The translations under genes and the position numbers were made by a program. Shown here piece by piece: positions 29,771-49,163 of a stretch of 64,000 nucleotides of DNA (position 1 is the first letter of the stretch; each line of letters begins with the position of its first letter). This stretch comes from Desulfobacteraceae bacterium (GTDB lineage Bacteria; Desulfobacterota; Desulfobacteria; Desulfobacterales; JACKCP01), in assembly GCA_020633955.1 (NCBI GenBank), contig JACKCP010000011.1, positions 24,027 through 88,026 of the forward strand, in the 5' to 3' direction. The notes below the pieces were generated by a model. That model worked only from the letters and a program-made list of their open reading frames with translations. It was not told the origin of the DNA and made no database searches.

Positions 29771-30718
29771 ATGAAAACAATAAAATTCAGTTTTAAAAAC
29801 CCAATATCAAGAATCGTATCTGCTGTTTTTTTTCTCTTTATTACAGGAGTGTTTGCAGTCTCTTTTACAGTGAGGGAAAAACAGGCAATAGTCCTTACAA
29901 GATTTGGAAAACCAGTAAGAACCATTGTTGATCCAGGACTTTATTTCAGGCTTCCCCCGCCGGTAGAAAAAGAAGTAAAGGTGGATTTAAGACTTAGAAC
30001 AACAGCAAGCGGTCTATACTCAACCCAGCTCAAGGACGGCTCAATAATTGTAATAGAAGCATTTGTTGTCTGGAAGGTCCCAGCAAATATCGAATCTGTA
30101 AAGACATTTGTAAGTGCACTTGGAAACAATACAGCTGAAGCAGCAGTACAGCTTAGAAGTATTCTTGGATCATCTCTTCAAACAGTTGCTGGAAGCTATA
30201 CAATGCAAAATCTTATAAATACAGAAAAAAAGGAACTCAAACTTGATGATTTTGAAAAAGAACTTGCAAATATCATAACATCAAAAACTGAAAGTGTTTA
30301 TGGTGTTGAAATTAAAACGGCTGGAATTGAAAGACTGATGGTTCCTGAACCAATTGTGGCAAGTACTATCCAGGCAATGATAGAGGACAGACGTGTTCTT
30401 GCACAGAAAACAAGAAGTGAAGGCGTAGAACGTGCAGGCCAGATAATGAGTAATGCCCATAGTGAATCAAGAAGAATAATAGCAAAGGCAAAAACCAGTG
30501 CCTCTGAAATTGAGGCTGAAGCAAGAAAAAAAGCTGCTGAAATATATGCATCAGCCTATGAAAAAGACCCCGAACTATACAAGTTCACAAGGGGTGTTGA
30601 TACATTAAAAAAACTAATGAACCAACAGACCACTCTAATACTTAAAACAGACTCTTATCCATTAAATTACATTGGAGAGTTTTCACAAACAGATAAAAAA
30701 GAAAAAAAAGATGAGTGA
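29771..30718 (+). CDS. SPFH/band-7 protein (HflC-like)
   Basis: 315 aa. One N-terminal TM is followed by VREKQAIVLTRFGKPVRTIVDPGLYFRLPPPVEKEVKVDLR. The tail is an Ala/Glu/Arg-rich coiled coil (AQKTRSEGVERAGQI...EAEARKKAAEIYA). It starts 4 nt after the previous stop. Confidence 0.8.
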   Translation: MKTIKFSFKNPISRIVSAVFFLFITGVFAVSFTVREKQAIVLTRFGKPVRTIVDPGLYFRLPPPVEKEVKVDLRLRTTASGLYSTQLKDGSIIVIEAFVVWKVPANIESVKTFVSALGNNTAEAAVQLRSILGSSLQTVAGSYTMQNLINTEKKELKLDDFEKELANIITSKTESVYGVEIKTAGIERLMVPEPIVASTIQAMIEDRRVLAQKTRSEGVERAGQIMSNAHSESRRIIAKAKTSASEIEAEARKKAAEIYASAYEKDPELYKFTRGVDTLKKLMNQQTTLILKTDSYPLNYIGEFSQTDKKEKKDE

Positions 30719-43027: not shown

Positions 43028-44401
43028 CTAAAGATAGGTTTTTATGTACTTGTCAACAAGGGTTTCAGCTGCTCCTGTGTATGTTTGAGGAGTAAGCTTC
43101 TTGAGCCTTTCCTTTTCATTTTGAGGAAGATTTTCAAGGGAATCAATAAATGTATCAAGTTCCTTCCTTGTTATTCTGTGACCTCTTGTAAGCTTTTTCA
43201 TTTTTTCGTATGGATCTTTTTCGCCAAAAGCTCTCATCACAGTCTGTACAGGCTCTGCAAGAAGTTCAAGATTTTCTTCAAGATCTTTTTTCAATGCTTC
43301 GCTGTTAAGCTCAACTTTTGAAAGACCTTTTAAAATAGAATTACCTCCAATAAAAAGATAACCAAAAACTGCGCCAATATTCCTTAATACTGTTGAATCT
43401 GACAAATCTCTTTGAAATCTTGAAATAAGAAGCTTTGAACCAATATGTTCTGCCATTGCAGAACAAAGTCCGAAGTTTCCTTCACTGTTTTCAAAATCTA
43501 TTGGATTGACCTTATGTGGCATTGTTGAAGAACCAACCTCCCCTTCCTTGATTTTCTGCTTGAAATACCCAAGGGAAATATATCCCCACATATCACGGGC
43601 AAGATCAATTGAAATTGAACAAAGCCTTGAAATTGAGTGAAGGTTTTTTGCAATATAAGAGTAGGGATTAATCTGGGTTGTATAAAAAAGAGGTTCAGCT
43701 CCAAGATATTTTTTTATAAAATTTTCAGATGCTTTGGCCCAGTCTATATCCGGAAAAGCAGAAATATGAGCATTAAAATTACCTGTTGCGCCGTTCATTT
43801 TGCCTTGAACCGGAAGGTTTTTCAAAGTTTCAAGCTCTTCTCTTATTCTCCATGCAAAATTGATAAGCTCTTTTCCCATGGTTGTAGGAGTTGCCGGCTG
43901 TCCGTGTGTTCTTGACATCATGGGTTCTGATTTAAATTTGATTCCCAGATTTTCAACAAGATCAAGAATTTGATTAAAAAGTTCAAGAGCTTTTTCCCTG
44001 CCTCTTTTTATCATAAGACAATAAGAAGTATTATTGATGTCTTCTGACGTACACGCAAAATGAATCCATTCCTTTAAGTCAGAGAGGTTTTTTGAGCCAT
44101 TATCAAATTTTTCCTTTAAAAAATATTCGCAGGCCTTAACATCATGATTTGTAACCTTTTCAATATCTTTTATTTTTTGTGCATCATCAGCACTGAAGTT
44201 TTCAATTATTTTATTCAGATACAATCTGTCTTCATCTGAAAGATTACCAAATTCCAGTTCTTCCATTAAAAAAATAAACCATTTGATTTCAATTTCTATC
44301 CTGTGCTTTATAAGACCGAATTCAGAGAAAATATCCGATAAAACTGAAGTATGTCTTTTGTATCTACCGTCTAGAACTGAAATAGACAGAACCTGATTCA
44401 T
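43028..44401 (-). CDS. purB: adenylosuccinate lyase
   Basis: 457 aa. Shows the fumarate-lyase signature GSSTMPHKVNP, TSEDINN and MSRTHGQPATPTTMGKE. Confidence 0.95.
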   Translation of the reverse strand: MNQVLSISVLDGRYKRHTSVLSDIFSEFGLIKHRIEIEIKWFIFLMEELEFGNLSDEDRLYLNKIIENFSADDAQKIKDIEKVTNHDVKACEYFLKEKFDNGSKNLSDLKEWIHFACTSEDINNTSYCLMIKRGREKALELFNQILDLVENLGIKFKSEPMMSRTHGQPATPTTMGKELINFAWRIREELETLKNLPVQGKMNGATGNFNAHISAFPDIDWAKASENFIKKYLGAEPLFYTTQINPYSYIAKNLHSISRLCSISIDLARDMWGYISLGYFKQKIKEGEVGSSTMPHKVNPIDFENSEGNFGLCSAMAEHIGSKLLISRFQRDLSDSTVLRNIGAVFGYLFIGGNSILKGLSKVELNSEALKKDLEENLELLAEPVQTVMRAFGEKDPYEKMKKLTRGHRITRKELDTFIDSLENLPQNEKERLKKLTPQTYTGAAETLVDKYIKTYL

Positions 44402-44433
44402 TTTTTTACTCCCCTTATTTTAAAATTCTAATT

Positions 44434-44868
44434 TCAATATATAATATAATCTTCCAGATTATCCTCATCAACATCTTTTCCGGAAACAGCTTTGCCAAAA
44501 GCTGAAATTCCCAGTTTATGCACCAGAGTCCTGTCCCCTGAAACAAGATAGTGCCAGTCAGGCAGTTTTTTCTCCAGAAAAAGGATTCTGTATGAGCAGT
44601 TTGTGGGAAGATAATTAATATATTTTTCAAGATAATCAACACTTAATTTTACGCAGTCTTTTTTTTGCTCGCATCTTTTTTCATAAACACTGCAACGTAA
44701 GGAATCAAGTTCCAGGTAAATACAGGATACACAGGTAAAATAAAGTTCATCTGTTTCACTGTCGATAAGTTTTTCCATGCAGCACAGCCCGCACCTTGAG
44801 CATATAAGCTCCCACTCATATTCTGTAAACTCATCCATTTTTTTAAATCTGAAAAAATCTTTTTTCAT
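44434..44868 (-). CDS. ycgN: YcgN-family cysteine-cluster protein (UPF0260)
   Basis: 144 aa. EYEWELICSRCGLCCMEKL...DELYFTCVSCIYL...CSVYEKR is collinear with E. coli YcgN. Confidence 0.8.
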   Translation of the reverse strand: MKKDFFRFKKMDEFTEYEWELICSRCGLCCMEKLIDSETDELYFTCVSCIYLELDSLRCSVYEKRCEQKKDCVKLSVDYLEKYINYLPTNCSYRILFLEKKLPDWHYLVSGDRTLVHKLGISAFGKAVSGKDVDEDNLEDYIIY

Positions 44869-44896
44869 TCAAGTAAACCGTTGGGTTAATAATCGC

Positions 44897-44934
44897 AAAA
44901 AAAAAGCATCTTCGACCTTTTAAGGTGAAGATGC
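44897..44934 (-). terminator. rho-independent terminator of the cold-shock gene
   Basis: The minus strand has GCATCTTCACC-ttaaa-aGGTcGAAGATGC (11 bp with one bulge) followed by a 9-nt T-run. Confidence 0.6.
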
Positions 44935-44961
44935 TTTAAATTTCCAAAAATATAAAAAAAA

Positions 44962-45162
44962 TTAAATTTTTCTCACATTGTCAGCGGCAGGTCCTTTTGG
45001 TCCTTCTTTGATTTCAAAAGTAACCTTGTCACCTTCGTTCAGTGATTTGAAACCATCTGAATTGATTGCTGAAAAATGAACAAAAATATCTGTACCGTTT
45101 TCCTGCTCAATAAAACCAAAACCTTTTTTGTCACTGAACCACTTAACTACTCCGTTTGCCAT
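44962..45162 (-). CDS. cspA: cold-shock protein (CspA family)
   Basis: 66 aa. The sequence [33 protein letters not shown] carries the RNP1/RNP2 motifs. Confidence 0.95.
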
Positions 45163-45278
45163 CTAAACTAACCCTTTCTTAAATTTAATAGTATAAAAGT
45201 TTCCATTTATCAATTATTCCATATTAATAATTTGAGCAATTGACAAAGAAACCGGACCGCCATAAATACGGTATAAAA

Positions 45279-45307
45279 ATATTAATTTTTTTTTTATTTA
45301 AGGTCAA
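45279..45307 (-). promoter_or_regulatory. candidate sigma-70 promoter with ~110-nt leader for the cold-shock gene
   Basis: On the minus strand, TTGACC (45307-45302) is followed by a 17-nt spacer and TAATAT (45284-45279). Long 5' leaders are characteristic of cspA-type genes. Confidence 0.4.
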
Positions 45308-45502
45308 GATTAAATATTTGTTTGGTTTTCAATGTTTATTATAAAATAGCTTAATTGAATATTTTAATCTGATCATATTTATCAGGAGGTTAATCTAAGC
45401 ATGATATAAATGTGAAAACATTTGAACAGACAATTTTATCCATTGGATATGTGAAGCATTATTCATTGCTCAGTTTAGTTAAAAATCAATCTGTTTATAA
45501 AT

Positions 45503-45537
45503 AGTGACTGCCCGAAAATAAGGATTTTCTGTTCAGT
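45503..45537 (-). repeat. copy of the ~35-nt intergenic repeat family
   Basis: AGTGACTGCCCGAAAATAAGGATTTTCTGTTCAGT has about 28/35 identity to the reverse complement of the 17502-17535 arm. A weaker opposed copy at 45642-45672 would delimit a ~170-bp element. Confidence 0.5.
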
Positions 45538-45691
45538 TGCCAAATAACTTTTCAATAAACCAAAACCGCTTTTTTCCATAATGTTTACGGGTTAAAAAGC
45601 TTAACAACCTATGCTGAAGTATAATTTTTTTACCGGAACCGGATAAAAATATCAGTTTTCAGCCAACCAATACAAACAACGGGGAAAATCA

Positions 45692-46075
45692 ATGATTACT
45701 GTTTGTGCCGCTATTATTTTTAATGAAAAAAAAGAAAGGATTCTTATTGGAAGAAGAAAATCAGGTGAATTTAAAGGATACTGGGAATTCCCCGGAGGAA
45801 AACTTGAAGCCGGTGAAACCCCTGAAGACTGCATATTAAGAGAACTTGAGGAGGAACTGTGTGCAAGATCAGAAATAGTTTCTTTTTTCCATGAAGTGAT
45901 CCATGAATATAAATCAAAAAAAATTAAACTTGTTTTTTTTGAAGTAAGATTGATTGACCAGAAACTATGCACTAATGATCATGATATTGTGATCTGGGAA
46001 AAACCTTCGGAATTTAAAAATTATAAATTCCCTGAAGCTGACCTGAAAATTATTGAGATGCTTAATCAGTCATAA
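45692..46075 (+). CDS. mutT: Nudix hydrolase (MutT-like 8-oxo-dGTP diphosphatase)
   Basis: 127 aa with Nudix box GGKLEAGETPEDCILRELEEELC. Confidence 0.8.
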   Translation: MITVCAAIIFNEKKERILIGRRKSGEFKGYWEFPGGKLEAGETPEDCILRELEEELCARSEIVSFFHEVIHEYKSKKIKLVFFEVRLIDQKLCTNDHDIVIWEKPSEFKNYKFPEADLKIIEMLNQS

Positions 46076-46103
46076 AAAAAGGCAGCCCAGTAAAGACTGC
46101 CTT
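46073..46103 (-). terminator. terminator of the HesB-like selenoprotein gene
   Basis: The minus strand has AAGGCAG-tctttactggg-CTGCCTT followed by TTTTTTT, 22 nt after the TAA at 46125-46127. Confidence 0.5.
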
Positions 46104-46124
46104 GAATGCAAAAGTATTTATTAT

Positions 46125-46442
46125 TTAAACAGCACAGCTTCCGCCTGAACCGCAGCTGCTGCATCCGCCAGGTCCAAAGTCAATACTTGAATCAACTTTA
46201 AACCCTGTTGCAAGGTAATCTATCTTTACAGGTGAAGCCTGCTTCAAGAATTCTTTTTCTGCTATGAATTTAAAACCTTCAATTTCAAATACATCGTCTG
46301 TGTCTTTCTGCTCATCCAGAGCAAGTGCAATTGATGGACCTGCTCAACCGCCGCTTGCAACAAAAACTCTTACAGGCATAATTTCTTTGTCTGCAAAGAA
46401 ATTTTTTATTTCCTGTATTGCACTTTTAGTTACTTCAATCAT
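46125..46442 (-). CDS. HesB/IscA-like Fe-S assembly protein with in-frame UGA (predicted selenocysteine)
   Basis: This gene is absent from the ORF track. It starts at ATG 46442-46440, with a GGAGG RBS 8 nt upstream. My translation is MIEVTKSAIQEIKNFFADKEIMPVRVFVASGG-U-AGPSIALALDEQKDTDDVFEIEGFKFIAEKEFLKQASPVKIDYLATGFKVDSSIDFGPGGCSSCGSGGSCAV*. TGA is codon 33 (46346-46344), at the position of the conserved GGC(S/A)G cysteine. Seventy-two further stop-free codons follow. The gene has its own terminator. Confidence 0.75.
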
Positions 46443-46494
46443 TATTTTGCCTCCGTTAAAAATTTTGTGCTATTTTTAACACAACTGTTTTAAT

Positions 46495-46529
46495 AACTCA
46501 ATAGATTATCTCAATAAATCTATTGAGTT
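46495..46529. terminator. 11-bp inverted repeat downstream of clpB / upstream of the HesB-like gene
   Basis: aactcaataga-(13 nt)-tctattgagtt. No clear U-run on either strand. It could be a clpB terminator or an operator. Confidence 0.3.
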
Positions 46530-46583
46530 GTATCAGGAAAGAGAATAGTTTTAAAAATAAGTTACAATTTATTTCAAATAATA

Positions 46584-49163
46584 TTACATTAATTCAAAGA
46601 CTATTTCCCCATCCCTTAAATAAGCCTCCACCCTGCTTCCGTCTGTTATTTCACCTTTAAGAATTGCAAAAGAAAGCTTGTTTTCAATTAAATTCTGAAG
46701 TGCTCTTTTTAGAGGCCTTGCTCCAAAATCAGGCGAATATCCTGCTTCAGCAATATAATCAAGAGCATCTTCTTTTATATTTATACAGATATTTCTTGCT
46801 TCAAGTCTTTTCTTAAGATTTTTAAGCTGAATTTTAACAATTTCCTTTATCTGTTCTTTACCAAGATTATGGAACACAATTGTTTCATCAATTCTGTTTA
46901 AAAATTCAGGCTTAAATGAACCCCTTAGTATCTCTCCAACCTTTTGAGTCATTTCACTATAGTCTTTATTTGCATATTCAAGAACAAGGTGACTTCCAAT
47001 ATTTGAAGTCATAATTATTATTGTATTCTTGAAATCAACTGTTTTTCCATGGCCGTCTGTGAGTCTTCCGTCATCAAGAATCTGAAGCAGAATATTAAAT
47101 ACATCAGGATGGGCCTTTTCAATTTCATCAAAAAGAATAACACAGTATGGCCTTCTTCTTACTGCTTCTGTAAGATATCCGCCCTCTTCATAACCAACAT
47201 AACCAGGAGGAGCACCAATAAGCCTTGAAACAGCATGTTTTTCCATATATTCAGACATATCAACTCTGACAACAGCATTTTCGCTGTCGAACAAAAATTC
47301 TGCAAGAGCCTTGGCAAGTTCTGTTTTACCAACGCCTGTCGGCCCGAGGAAAATAAAAGAGCCAATTGGTTTATCAGGATCAGATATTCCAGACCTTGAT
47401 CTTCTGACAGCATCTGACACAGCTTTTACTGCTTCATTTTGACCGACAACCCTTTTTACGATCCTGTCTTCCATAAAAACAAGTTTTTCCATTTCGCTTT
47501 CAAGCATTTTGCTTACAGGAATCCCTGTCCATCTGGATATAACCTGTGCAATATCTTCTGAATCAACTTCCTCCCTTAAAATTGAATTTTTTGCCTCTGT
47601 TGATTCCTTTTCAGCCTTTTCAAGCTCCCTGTTAAGCTCATTCATTCTTCCATATCTTATTTCAGCAACCTTGTCGTATTTTCCTTCCCTTTCAAGCTTT
47701 TCTGCTTCAATACCAAGTTTTTCCAGTTCCTCCCTGATATTTCTGACCTTCCTGATTTTGTCTTTTTCAGTCTGCCATTTACCTTTTTTCTCAAGAAGCT
47801 CCTCTTTTAAAGCAGAAAGCTCTGATTCAATTTTTTCAAGCCTTTTTTTAGACCCCTCATCTTTTTCTTTTTTTAGAGCCTCCCTTTCAATTTCAAGCTG
47901 AGTGGTTTTTCTCTGAATTTCATCAATTTCAGCAGGCATTGAATCTATTTCTATTCTAATTTTGGAAGCAGCCTCATCAATCAAATCAATTGCCTTGTCA
48001 GGGAGAAAGCGGTCTGCAATATATCTGTTTGAAAGTGTCGCAGCTGATACTATGGCTGAATCCTTTATTCTTACCCCATGATGAACTTCGTATTTTTCCT
48101 TCAGCCCCCTTAAAATTGAAATAGTATCTTCAACATCTGGCTCTCTTATGATCAGAGGCTGAAATCTTCTTTCAAGGGCAGAATCCTTTTCAATATATTT
48201 TTTATATTCATTAAGTGTTGTTGCACCTATACATCTTAATTCACCTCTGGCAAGTGAGGGCTTGAGCATGTTTGAAGCATCCATTGACCCTTCTGCCGAA
48301 CCAGCGCCCACAAGAGTATGAAGTTCGTCGATAAACAGTATTATTTCACCTTCAGACTTTTCTATTTCCTTTAAAACAGCTTTGAGCCTGTCTTCAAATT
48401 CTCCTCTGTATTTTGCTCCGGCAACAAGAGCACCAAGGTCAAGTGCAATAATTCTTTTATCTTTTAATGTTTCTGCAACATCACCTTCAATTATTCGTCT
48501 TGCAAGTCCCTCTGCAATTGCTGTTTTACCCACTCCCGGCTCACCTATGAGCACGGGGTTGTTTTTTGTTCTTCTTGATAAAATCTGAACAACACGCCTT
48601 ATTTCATCATCACGTCCAATAACAGGATCAAGTTTTCCTTTTCTAGCAAGTTCTGTAAGATCCTTGCTGTATTTTTCCAGTGCCTGATATTTTTCTTCAG
48701 GATTTTGATCTGTAACCACGTCGTTTCCCCTTATATCAACCAAAATTTTTAAAATTACATCTTTTGTAAGACTGTTTGCTTTGAAAAGCTTTTTGATCTT
48801 ATCTTCTGCATTGTCTATTAACGAGATCAAAATATGTTCAACGCTTACATACTGATCCTTCATATTTTCTGCTATGGCAAATGATGCATCCAGAACCTTG
48901 TGAGCATTTCTTGAAATGTATACTTCGCTGTTTGAACCAGAAACAGAAGGAATTTCATTTAAGAGAGCTTCAACGCTTTTTTTAAAATTTTCCCTTAAAA
49001 CTCCTGCTTTCCCTAAAATTATTGAGGTTATTCCGTTGTTGTCTTCAATCATTGAATTTAAAAAATGAATATTTTCTATTGCCTGATGGCCTTTTCTCAG
49101 GGCAAGACTCTGGGAATTGGCAATTATTTCCTGTGACTTAACTGTCAGCTTATCAAATCTCAT
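46584..49163 (-). CDS. clpB: ATP-dependent chaperone/disaggregase ClpB
   Basis: 859 aa with two AAA+ modules ([30 protein letters not shown]). A long middle coiled-coil domain lies between NBD1 and NBD2. Confidence 0.97.

What the first reader, a model, noticed from the sequence alone, without database searches (positions are those of the whole stretch)
46125..46442. Unannotated HesB/IscA-like selenoprotein gene with in-frame UGA
Seen: the minus strand has an ATG with a GGAGG RBS 8 nt upstream. There are 32 sense codons, then TGA (46346-46344), then 72 more stop-free codons ending in TAA, followed by a hairpin plus U-run terminator. In this AT-rich genome a 72-codon stop-free run after a genuine stop would be unlikely. 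The TGA lies in VFVASGG-U-AGPS, which is the GGC(S/A)G cluster-ligand position of IscA/HesB proteins. The C-terminus is Cys-rich (GGCSSCGSGGSC). An 8-bp hairpin (GAGCAGGU/ACUUGCUC with an 11-nt loop, 46319-46345) begins inside the UGA. Established: HesB-like proteins are a known bacterial selenoprotein family, reported mainly in deltaproteobacteria and marine metagenomes. Other genes here clearly terminate at TGA (for example 30716-30718), so this is not a recoded genetic code. Inference: this is a Sec-decoded gene that the ORF track split, and the plus-strand ORF 46264-46479 is an artefact.
Basis: partly seen in the sequence, partly recalled or inferred. Interest (0 to 1): 0.62.

Follow-up and report, generated by a model that had tools for sequence, protein, structure and literature searches.

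The report
Selenocysteine IscA/HesB gene, known family
A small iron-sulfur-assembly-type (IscA/HesB) gene with an in-frame UGA that most likely encodes selenocysteine is really there and is transcribed, but it belongs to an already curated selenoprotein family, so it is a gene-calling gap rather than a discovery.

Summary
The minus-strand gene 46442-46125 (105 codons) has a GGAGG ribosome-binding site, one in-frame TGA at codon 33 (46346-46344), a TAA stop and an intrinsic terminator.

- The protein scores 119 bits against NCBIfam NF038090 'IscA_HesB_Se' (cutoff 85).
- TGA sits at the same codon in 17 of 18 orthologous loci from Desulfobacterota genomes. Cys occupies that column in the remaining orthologue, in other family members and in solved IscA structures.
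- Substitutions downstream of the TGA are mainly synonymous.
- TGA ends 17 of 53 long ORFs in the window, so the genetic code is not reassigned.
- RNA contigs from four metatranscriptomes span the gene across the TGA.

One correction concerns the SECIS. The conserved element is UUGCUC-UGGAY-GAGCAR at 46324-46308. Its loop starts 25 nt after the UGA and has G at loop position 2. Synonymous codons in its stem are frozen in all 17 Sec forms, while five Cys forms use other codons.

This is a known family and mechanism, so interest is low.

The parts
46125..46442 (-). Coding sequence of a 105-residue IscA/HesB-family selenoprotein (MIEVTKSAIQEIKNFFADKEIMPVRVFVASGG-U-AGPS...GGCSSCGSGGSCAV), stop TAA at 46127-46125
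   Evidence: reading frame; NF038090, 119.3 bits, cutoff 85; PF01521, 30.4 bits, cutoff 26.3; IscA/SufA fold, TM 0.6-0.7
46450..46454 (-). Shine-Dalgarno GGAGG, 7 nt before the ATG
   Evidence: conserved in L001-L003
46344..46346 (-). In-frame UGA, codon 33, proposed Sec codon; aligns with the first cluster-ligand Cys (GGC[S/A]G) of IscA-type proteins
   Evidence: TGA at codon 33 in 17 of 18 orthologous loci, Cys in L006; Cys in 17 full-length protein homologues; aligns with Cys in 1nwb, 2apn, 1r94
46308..46324 (-). Conserved SECIS-like hairpin UUGCUC-UGGAU-GAGCAG (6 bp, 5-nt loop at 46318-46314), embedded in codons 40-45 (L-A-L-D-E-Q); the loop starts 25 nt after the UGA
   Evidence: RNAalifold consensus; 98% of cells paired, U-A to G-C compensatory change in L004 and L007; frozen synonymous codons GCU, CUG, GAG in 17/17; the loop codon varies; five Cys forms cannot form it; it is the MFE once 12-15 nt after the UGA are occluded
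46319..46345 (-).
   Evidence: z-score 0.28; 76% of cells paired; pairs 5-25 and 9-21 broken in 12 and 13 of 17
46134..46163 (-). Cys-rich C-terminal tail C94-S-S-C97-G-S-G-G-S-C103, in place of the C-x-C ligand pair of canonical IscA
   Evidence: one tail Cys is invariant in the alignment, C97; tail residues 91-105 have pLDDT below 50, so it is flexible
46079..46103 (-). Intrinsic terminator-like hairpin followed by TTTTT, between the convergent hesB-like and NUDIX genes
46139..46519 (.). Stretch covered by RNA contigs in four metatranscriptomes (gene plus about 70-nt leader); the neighbouring genes are not covered
   Evidence: X14 record 46143-46510 with 0 differences; X16 46139-46444; X15 46148-46512; X12 46140-46519
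46495..46529 (.). Palindrome AACTCAATAGAT-N11-ATCTATTGAGTT upstream of the gene; role unknown (operator or promoter region?)
   Evidence: right half conserved in L001-L003

Best explanation
The minus-strand gene 46442-46125 encodes a 105-residue member of the IscA/HesB superfamily, NCBIfam subfamily NF038090 'IscA_HesB_Se'. Codon 33 (UGA) is decoded as selenocysteine.

Proposed mechanism (inferred from the established bacterial pathway): when the ribosome reaches the UGA, the nearby clade-specific hairpin is unwound. The 17-nt hairpin at 46324-46308 has the loop UGGAU, with G at its second position, starting 25 nt after the UGA. This hairpin is free to bind SelB-GTP-Sec-tRNA(Sec), which delivers Sec in competition with RF2.

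The Sec replaces the first of the cluster or metal ligands of A-type Fe-S carrier proteins (Cys35 of E. coli IscA). Together with the flexible C-terminal CxxC...C tail, it most likely binds an Fe-S cluster, iron or another thiophilic ligand, or performs selenol/thiol exchange. The gene is transcribed on its own from a leader of about 70 nt and ends at an intrinsic terminator.

Shown here: the gene anatomy, family membership, conservation of the UGA, Cys in homologues, purifying selection downstream of the UGA, the conserved hairpin with frozen synonymous sites, and transcription. Inferred: actual Sec insertion, SelB binding and the biochemical role.
For: Family and fold:
- NF038090 scores 119.3 bits against a cutoff of 85. 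Nine other Sec and Cys homologues also pass that cutoff.
- The AlphaFold model (pLDDT 79) matches IscA and SufA structures 1x0g, 1r94, 1s98 and 2d2a at TM 0.6-0.7.

The UGA column:
- TGA is at codon 33 in 17 of 18 orthologous loci that are 42-97% identical, including the isolate Desulfobotulus alkaliphilus (L004). L006 has Cys there.
- Cys occupies that column in 17 full-length protein homologues and in the solved structures 1nwb, 2apn and 1r94.
- Downstream of the TGA, substitutions are mostly synonymous: 14 synonymous to 2 non-synonymous against L001, and 18 to 9 against L003.

The SECIS hairpin:
- RNAalifold's consensus structure is the hairpin at columns 23-39.
- 98% of cells are paired, with a compensatory U-A to G-C change in L004 and L007.
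- Ala41 is GCU in 17/17, Leu42 is CUG in 17/17 and Glu44 is GAG in 17/17. The loop codon Asp43 varies, and other invariant Ala, Gly and Pro codons use 3-4 synonyms.
- Five Cys-form homologues use other codons. Their forced-hairpin energy is +2.5 to +5.5 kcal/mol (one at -2.3), against -5.8 to -9.2 for the Sec forms.
- The hairpin meets the published bSECIS rules on loop size, stem length, G in the first two loop positions and 16-37 nt spacing (PMC13188914).

Code, base calls and transcription:
- TGA ends 17 of 53 long ORFs in the window.
- The TGA is present in independent DNA and RNA data sets.

Literature:
- HesB-like proteins are an established selenoprotein family, common in Deltaproteobacteria (PMC1794560; PMC1976440).
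- The family was confirmed by 75Se labelling in Methanococcus maripaludis (PMC11097638).
Against: - The Sec-insertion machinery (selA, selB, selC, selD) was not shown in this genome. The 64-kb window holds no tRNA-Sec, no sel gene among ten size-matched ORFs and no second selenoprotein candidate.
- The hairpin alone is only -6.5 to -6.9 kcal/mol in this sequence, slightly weaker than the -7.5 threshold of the bSECIS model.
- Covariation is thin: only one pair shows compensatory changes. The stem also lies in a conserved peptide motif.
- No Rfam family matched the region.
- There is no protein-level evidence for Sec.
Confidence: 0.9

Rival explanations
1. UGA 33 is read through without selenocysteine, for example by near-cognate Cys-tRNA or Trp-tRNA, because this organism has lost the Sec machinery. 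The gene would then be a leaky or decaying relic of a selenoprotein gene.
For: The Sec machinery was not verified. No sel genes or tRNA-Sec lie in the window. No other selenoprotein gene lies in the window.
Against: The SECIS hairpin in the window is intact and identical to that of L001 and L002. The downstream frame is under purifying selection against close relatives. The gene is transcribed in four metatranscriptomes. Lineages that lose Sec usually show UGA-to-UGC/UGU conversion or gene loss (PMC1794560).
Confidence: 0.05
2. The gene is a pseudogene. The TGA is a nonsense mutation, and only a 32-residue fragment, or nothing, is made.
For: Table 11 ORF calling splits the frame. Public gene callers often report only the C-terminal 65-68 residues.
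Against: The same TGA occurs at the same codon in 17 orthologues down to 42% identity. There are no further stops or frameshifts, and synonymous changes exceed non-synonymous ones downstream of the TGA. The hairpin is conserved with frozen synonymous sites.
Confidence: 0.02
3. The organism reads TGA as a sense codon throughout (code 4 or 25), so the residue is Trp or Gly.
For: Some public gene calls of orthologues carry W at this position (P0002-P0005 and P0011).
Against: 17 of 53 long ORFs in the window end at TGA, with lengths matching their families. Homologues have Cys, never Trp or Gly, at this column. GC content is 35%, but no other gene needs TGA read-through.
Confidence: 0.01

Closest known systems
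NCBIfam NF038090 'IscA_HesB_Se' (IscA/HesB family protein; subfamily holding Sec and Cys forms)
   Same: The whole protein matches the full-length model (1-96 of the protein to 1-101 of 101) at 119 bits against a cutoff of 85. It has the GG[U/C]xGP motif, the LALDE block and the Cys-rich C-terminal tail. Orthologues 81-97% identical exist in public Desulfobacterota MAGs.
   Different: Nothing of substance. This copy was simply not called as one gene.
HesB-like selenoprotein family (TIGR01911 HesB_rel_seleno; Zhang et al. 2006, PMC1794560; 75Se-confirmed in Methanococcus maripaludis, PMC11097638)
   Same: A small IscA/HesB-superfamily protein with Sec in a UxGP motif at the position of the conserved Cys. 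It occurs mainly in anaerobes, including Deltaproteobacteria. Its function is unknown.
   Different: The protein scores only 30 bits against TIGR01911 (cutoff 66.35), so it belongs to a sister subfamily. It carries a longer Cys-rich tail.
A-type Fe-S carrier proteins IscA/SufA/ErpA (PDB 1r94, 1s98, 1x0g, 2d2a)
   Same: The fold is the same (TM 0.6-0.7). Sec33 aligns with the first cluster ligand, Cys35 of E. coli IscA. The C-terminus is flexible and carries Cys residues.
   Different: Sec replaces Cys. The C-terminal ligand motif is CxxC(x5)C rather than C-G-C. The protein scores below the TIGR00049, IscA, SufA and ErpA cutoffs. The gene is not in an isc, suf or nif operon; it lies downstream of clpB.
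Bacterial SECIS consensus (bSECISearch model; summarised in PMC13188914)
   Same: A stem-loop inside the coding region just 3' of the UGA, with a 5-nt apical loop, a 6-bp stem, G at loop position 2 followed by G, and 25 nt between the UGA and the loop.
   Different: The hairpin is minimal at 17 nt and has no extended lower stem. Its free energy of -6.5 to -6.9 kcal/mol in this sequence is slightly weaker than the model's -7.5 limit. The loop-closing N1 and N2 positions (U and U/C) do not pair.

Membership tests
NCBIfam NF038090 IscA_HesB_Se | Whole-protein HMM score at or above the curated cutoff (85 bits) | tested here: met
   119.3 bits, E 7e-35, full-length match
NCBIfam NF038090 IscA_HesB_Se | Sec or Cys at the GG[U/C]xGP position, plus a Cys-rich C-terminal tail | tested here: met
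   U33 in VASGG-U-AGPS; tail C94, C97 and C103; aligned with Sec and Cys family members
HesB-like selenoprotein, TIGR01911 HesB_rel_seleno | HMM score at or above the curated cutoff (66.35 bits) | tested here: not met
   30.0 bits, so it is a related but separate subfamily
HesB-like selenoprotein, TIGR01911 HesB_rel_seleno | UxGP Sec motif (PMC13188914, Table 1) | tested here: met
   U-A-G-P at residues 33-36
A-type Fe-S carrier (IscA/SufA/ErpA; TIGR00049, TIGR02011, TIGR01997, NF010147) | HMM score above the curated cutoffs | tested here: not met
   48.0 against 58.8; 36.0 against 150.6; 36.9 against 136.2; 33.9 against 117
A-type Fe-S carrier (IscA/SufA/ErpA) | IscA fold | tested here: met
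   Foldseek top hits 1x0g, 1r94, 1s98 and 2d2a, probability 1.00, TM 0.6-0.7
A-type Fe-S carrier (IscA/SufA/ErpA) | Three invariant Cys ligands, C-x(~63)-C-x-C | tested here: not met
   The first ligand is present as Sec33. The C-terminal C-G-C is replaced by C94-x-x-C97-x5-C103.
SelB/SECIS-dependent bacterial selenoprotein gene | In-frame UGA that aligns with Cys in homologues, with a conserved open frame downstream | tested here: met
SelB/SECIS-dependent bacterial selenoprotein gene | bSECIS stem-loop: 3-9 nt loop, stem of at least 4 bp, G in the first two loop positions, 16-37 nt from the UGA, MFE of -7.5 kcal/mol or lower | tested here: inconclusive
   Loop, stem, G position and spacing are met, and the hairpin is conserved with frozen synonymous sites. 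The energy of the hairpin alone is -6.5 to -6.9 kcal/mol here and -9.2 in L004. No Rfam SECIS match was found.
SelB/SECIS-dependent bacterial selenoprotein gene | selA, selB, selD and tRNA-Sec present in the same genome | not testable with these tools
None of these genes is in the 64-kb window.
SelB/SECIS-dependent bacterial selenoprotein gene | Selenium actually incorporated (75Se labelling or mass spectrometry) | not testable with these tools
   This is an experimental test. It has been done only for the archaeal HesB-like protein (PMC11097638).

The most novel reading that the evidence does not exclude
The NF038090 subfamily may not be a conventional A-type Fe-S carrier. It may instead be a highly expressed, stand-alone selenol/thiol protein in which Sec33 works with the flexible CxxC...C tail. 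In the Desulfobacteraceae-like clade it is genetically tied to the disaggregase gene clpB, and it might act in stress-linked repair or in handling a thiophilic metal or metalloid. In the same clade, the hairpin that sequesters the UGA competes with the SECIS hairpin and could tune Sec insertion.
Probability: 0.15. Interest if true: 0.35.

Novelty: already known. Interest (0 to 1): 0.15.

Why it matters
The finding is mainly an annotation matter. Standard ORF calling splits this gene. Public gene catalogues hold its orthologues either truncated to 65-68 residues or with a false Trp at the Sec position. Selenoprotein-aware annotation, for which a curated NCBIfam model already exists, would recover it.

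Two minor points add value:
- The SECIS of this subfamily is now located. It is a 17-nt hairpin inside the LALDEQ codons, with a clear synonymous-site freeze.
- Metatranscriptome data show the gene expressed as its own unit in wastewater and plastic-associated communities.

The biochemical role of HesB-like selenoproteins remains unknown (PMC11097638), but this instance does not make that question more tractable.

Tried and rejected
- **Own-genome search for Sec machinery.** The machinery test was therefore not done.
- **Sec genes inside the window.** ARAGORN and Rfam found only tRNA-Met, tRNA-Arg and RNase P. Ten ORFs of SelA, SelB or SelD size are other proteins, including argC, argH, hslU, a P1B ATPase and SPFH proteins.
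- **Other selenoprotein genes in the window.** A scan for other in-frame-TGA genes returned only antisense or upstream-extension noise besides this gene.
- **Rfam scan of 45900-46700 at E up to 10.** No SECIS or other credible family matched.
Rejected. Its z-score is 0.28. Pairs 5-25 and 9-21 are broken in 12-13 of 17 orthologues. Its loop starts 6 nt after the UGA, and its 5' arm would lie inside the ribosome when the UGA is in the A site.
- **tRNA-Sec in the 18 related loci.** None found.
- **Earlier scan notes.** Notes on this genome and on look-alike sequences held nothing about Sec.
- **A second Sec at the C-terminus of L008, L009 and L011 (..SC-TGA-TAA).** Judged a tandem stop, because relatives end ..SC-stop or ..SC-Gly-stop.
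- **Transcription start.** Candidate -10 boxes (TAGATT at 46522-46517, GATAAT at 46510-46505) and the RNA contig ends at 46510-46519 do not settle it.

Full report
**1. Observation**

- GGAGG lies at 46454-46450, 7 nt before the ATG at 46442-46440.
- 32 sense codons are followed by TGA at 46346-46344, then 72 further sense codons, then TAA at 46127-46125.
- A terminator-like hairpin with a T-run lies at 46103-46079.
- Under table 11 the frame appears only as a 32-aa ORF and a 40-aa ORF.
- Read with TGA as U, the product is MIEVTKSAIQEIKNFFADKEIMPVRVFVASGGUAGPSIALALDEQKDTDDVFEIEGFKFIAEKEFLKQASPVKIDYLATGFKVDSSIDFGPGGCSSCGSGGSCAV.

The TGA is not an assembly error. Contigs from three independent DNA metagenomes of different studies, and from four metatranscriptomes, carry it unchanged.

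**2. Family**

- Pfam PF01521 (Fe-S_biosyn) matches above its gathering score.
- NCBIfam places the protein in NF038090 'IscA_HesB_Se' at 119.3 bits against a cutoff of 85.
- It scores below the cutoffs of TIGR01911 (the classic HesB-like selenoprotein model), TIGR00049, IscA, SufA and ErpA.
- Nine further homologues, both Sec and Cys forms, also pass the NF038090 cutoff. The subfamily therefore mixes the two forms.
- An AlphaFold model (pLDDT 79, residues 91-105 disordered) matches IscA and SufA crystal structures at TM 0.6-0.7.
- Sequence alignment to 1nwb, 2apn and 1r94 puts residue 33 on the GGC(S/A)G ligand Cys.

**3. Is the UGA decoded?**

A scan of one genome per species returned 18 true homologous loci, all labelled Desulfobacterota except one 'Candidatus Aminicenantes' MAG contig (L009) whose gene is identical to that of a Desulfovermiculus MAG (L008). 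They include the isolate Desulfobotulus alkaliphilus and the Olavius algarvensis Delta 4 symbiont.
- 17 of the 18 have TGA at exactly codon 33, across 42-97% protein identity. One (L006) has Cys there.
- 17 full-length protein homologues carry Cys at that column.
- Downstream of the TGA, synonymous differences dominate. Counts are 14 synonymous to 2 non-synonymous against L001, and 18 to 9 against L003. The 3' part is therefore translated in this frame.
- TGA ends 17 of 53 long ORFs in the window, and no other gene needs read-through. The code is standard.
- The antisense ORF 46264-46479 is broken by stops in five relatives.

**4. The SECIS**

Across orthologues, its pairs 5-25 and 9-21 fail in 12 and 13 of 17 sequences.

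RNAalifold instead returns a 6-bp, 5-nt-loop hairpin at alignment columns 23-39, which is window 46324-46308: UUGCUC-UGGAU-GAGCAG.
- 98% of cells pair, against 30-64% for slid controls. L004 and L007 show a compensatory U-A to G-C change.
- The stem lies in the conserved L-A-L-D-E-Q motif, so I used two controls.
  - Synonymous sites: in the 17 Sec forms, Ala41 is always GCU, Leu42 always CUG and Glu44 always GAG. The loop codon Asp43 alternates GAU and GAC. Other invariant Ala, Gly and Pro codons of the gene use 3-4 synonyms.
  - Cys forms: five homologues with the same or similar peptide motif use different codons and cannot form the hairpin. Forced energy is +2.5 to +5.5 kcal/mol (one at -2.3), against -5.8 to -9.2 for the Sec forms.
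- The hairpin meets the published bSECIS rules for loop size, stem length, G in the first two loop positions and UGA-to-loop spacing (25 nt, allowed range 16-37). It is marginally weaker than the -7.5 kcal/mol limit (PMC13188914).
- The two hairpins share the segment CUUGCUC and so exclude each other. With 12-15 nt after the UGA occluded, as by a ribosome decoding the UGA, only the conserved hairpin forms.

**5. Expression and context**

- In four metatranscriptomes, RNA contigs cover 46139-46519 and cross the TGA with no differences. The neighbouring clpB and NUDIX genes are not covered, apart from about 40-nt conserved clpB pieces from other organisms. This fits a separately transcribed, well-expressed small gene. 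Contigs carry no strand information and are a poor measure of abundance.
- The order clpB, hesB-like, NUDIX (convergent), cspA, ycgN-like, purB is kept in L001-L003. The clpB, hesB-like pairing is also kept in L004.
- A palindrome at 46529-46495 precedes the gene. Its right half is conserved in L001-L003. Its role is open.

**6. What could not be done**

The window contains none of these genes. Earlier scan notes hold nothing on the matter. Sec decoding therefore rests on comparative evidence, plus the literature showing that Deltaproteobacteria are rich in selenoproteins, HesB-like proteins among them (PMC1794560; PMC1976440).

**7. Comparison with the known, and verdict**

- HesB-like proteins have been a recognised selenoprotein family since 2005-2006. 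One was confirmed by 75Se labelling in Methanococcus maripaludis, and its function is still unclear (PMC11097638).
- A curated NCBIfam model (NF038090) already covers exactly this subfamily, and near-identical orthologues are in public MAGs.
- The finding is therefore a correct call of an already known kind of gene. The SECIS assignment is corrected here.
- Interest is low. My confidence that this is a Sec-decoded IscA/HesB gene is about 0.9.

Noticed in passing
window 46495-46529: A perfect 12-nt-arm palindrome, AACTCAATAGAT-N11-ATCTATTGAGTT, lies between the clpB stop and the hesB-like start. Its right half, GATAATCTATTGAGTT, is conserved in L001-L003. RNA contigs from three metatranscriptomes end inside it (46510-46519). 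It could be an operator or part of the promoter.
   Followed up: partly
P0002-P0005, P0011; P0006, P0008, P0009, P0013-P0015, P0017, P0018, P0024: Public protein collections hold orthologues of this gene either with Trp at the Sec column (called under a TGA=W code) or as 65-68-residue truncations starting at the Met after the TGA. This is systematic mis-annotation of the family.
   Followed up: partly
L008:526-830, L009:181-485, L011:314-618: These orthologues end ...C-T-S-C-TGA-TAA, where close relatives end ...S-C-Gly-TAA or ...S-C-TAA. This is most likely a tandem stop rather than a second, C-terminal Sec.
   Followed up: no
window 46139-46519 versus flanks 45600-47200: In four metatranscriptomes only the small hesB-like gene is represented by RNA contigs. 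The adjacent clpB and NUDIX genes are not, which suggests comparatively high expression of this gene in situ.
   Followed up: partly
window 46057-46120: One wastewater metagenome contig (X4) replaces these 64 bases, the hesB/NUDIX intergenic region that includes the terminator, with 96 unrelated letters. This is strain-level variation of the intergenic region.
   Followed up: no
window 46319-46345 and the same span in L001-L004: In the five closest sequences the UGA-proximal hairpin is kept. L004 has a synonymous GCA-to-GCC change that pairs with its U24-to-G24 change. That same G24 is also compensated within the SECIS stem. This could mean two alternative conformations, or it could be chance.
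   Followed up: partly
window 43028-49163; L001-L004: The order clpB, hesB-like, NUDIX (convergent), cspA, ycgN-like, purB is conserved among the nearest relatives. More distant Sec-form orthologues (L005-L018) do not have clpB within 3 kb upstream.
   Followed up: partly
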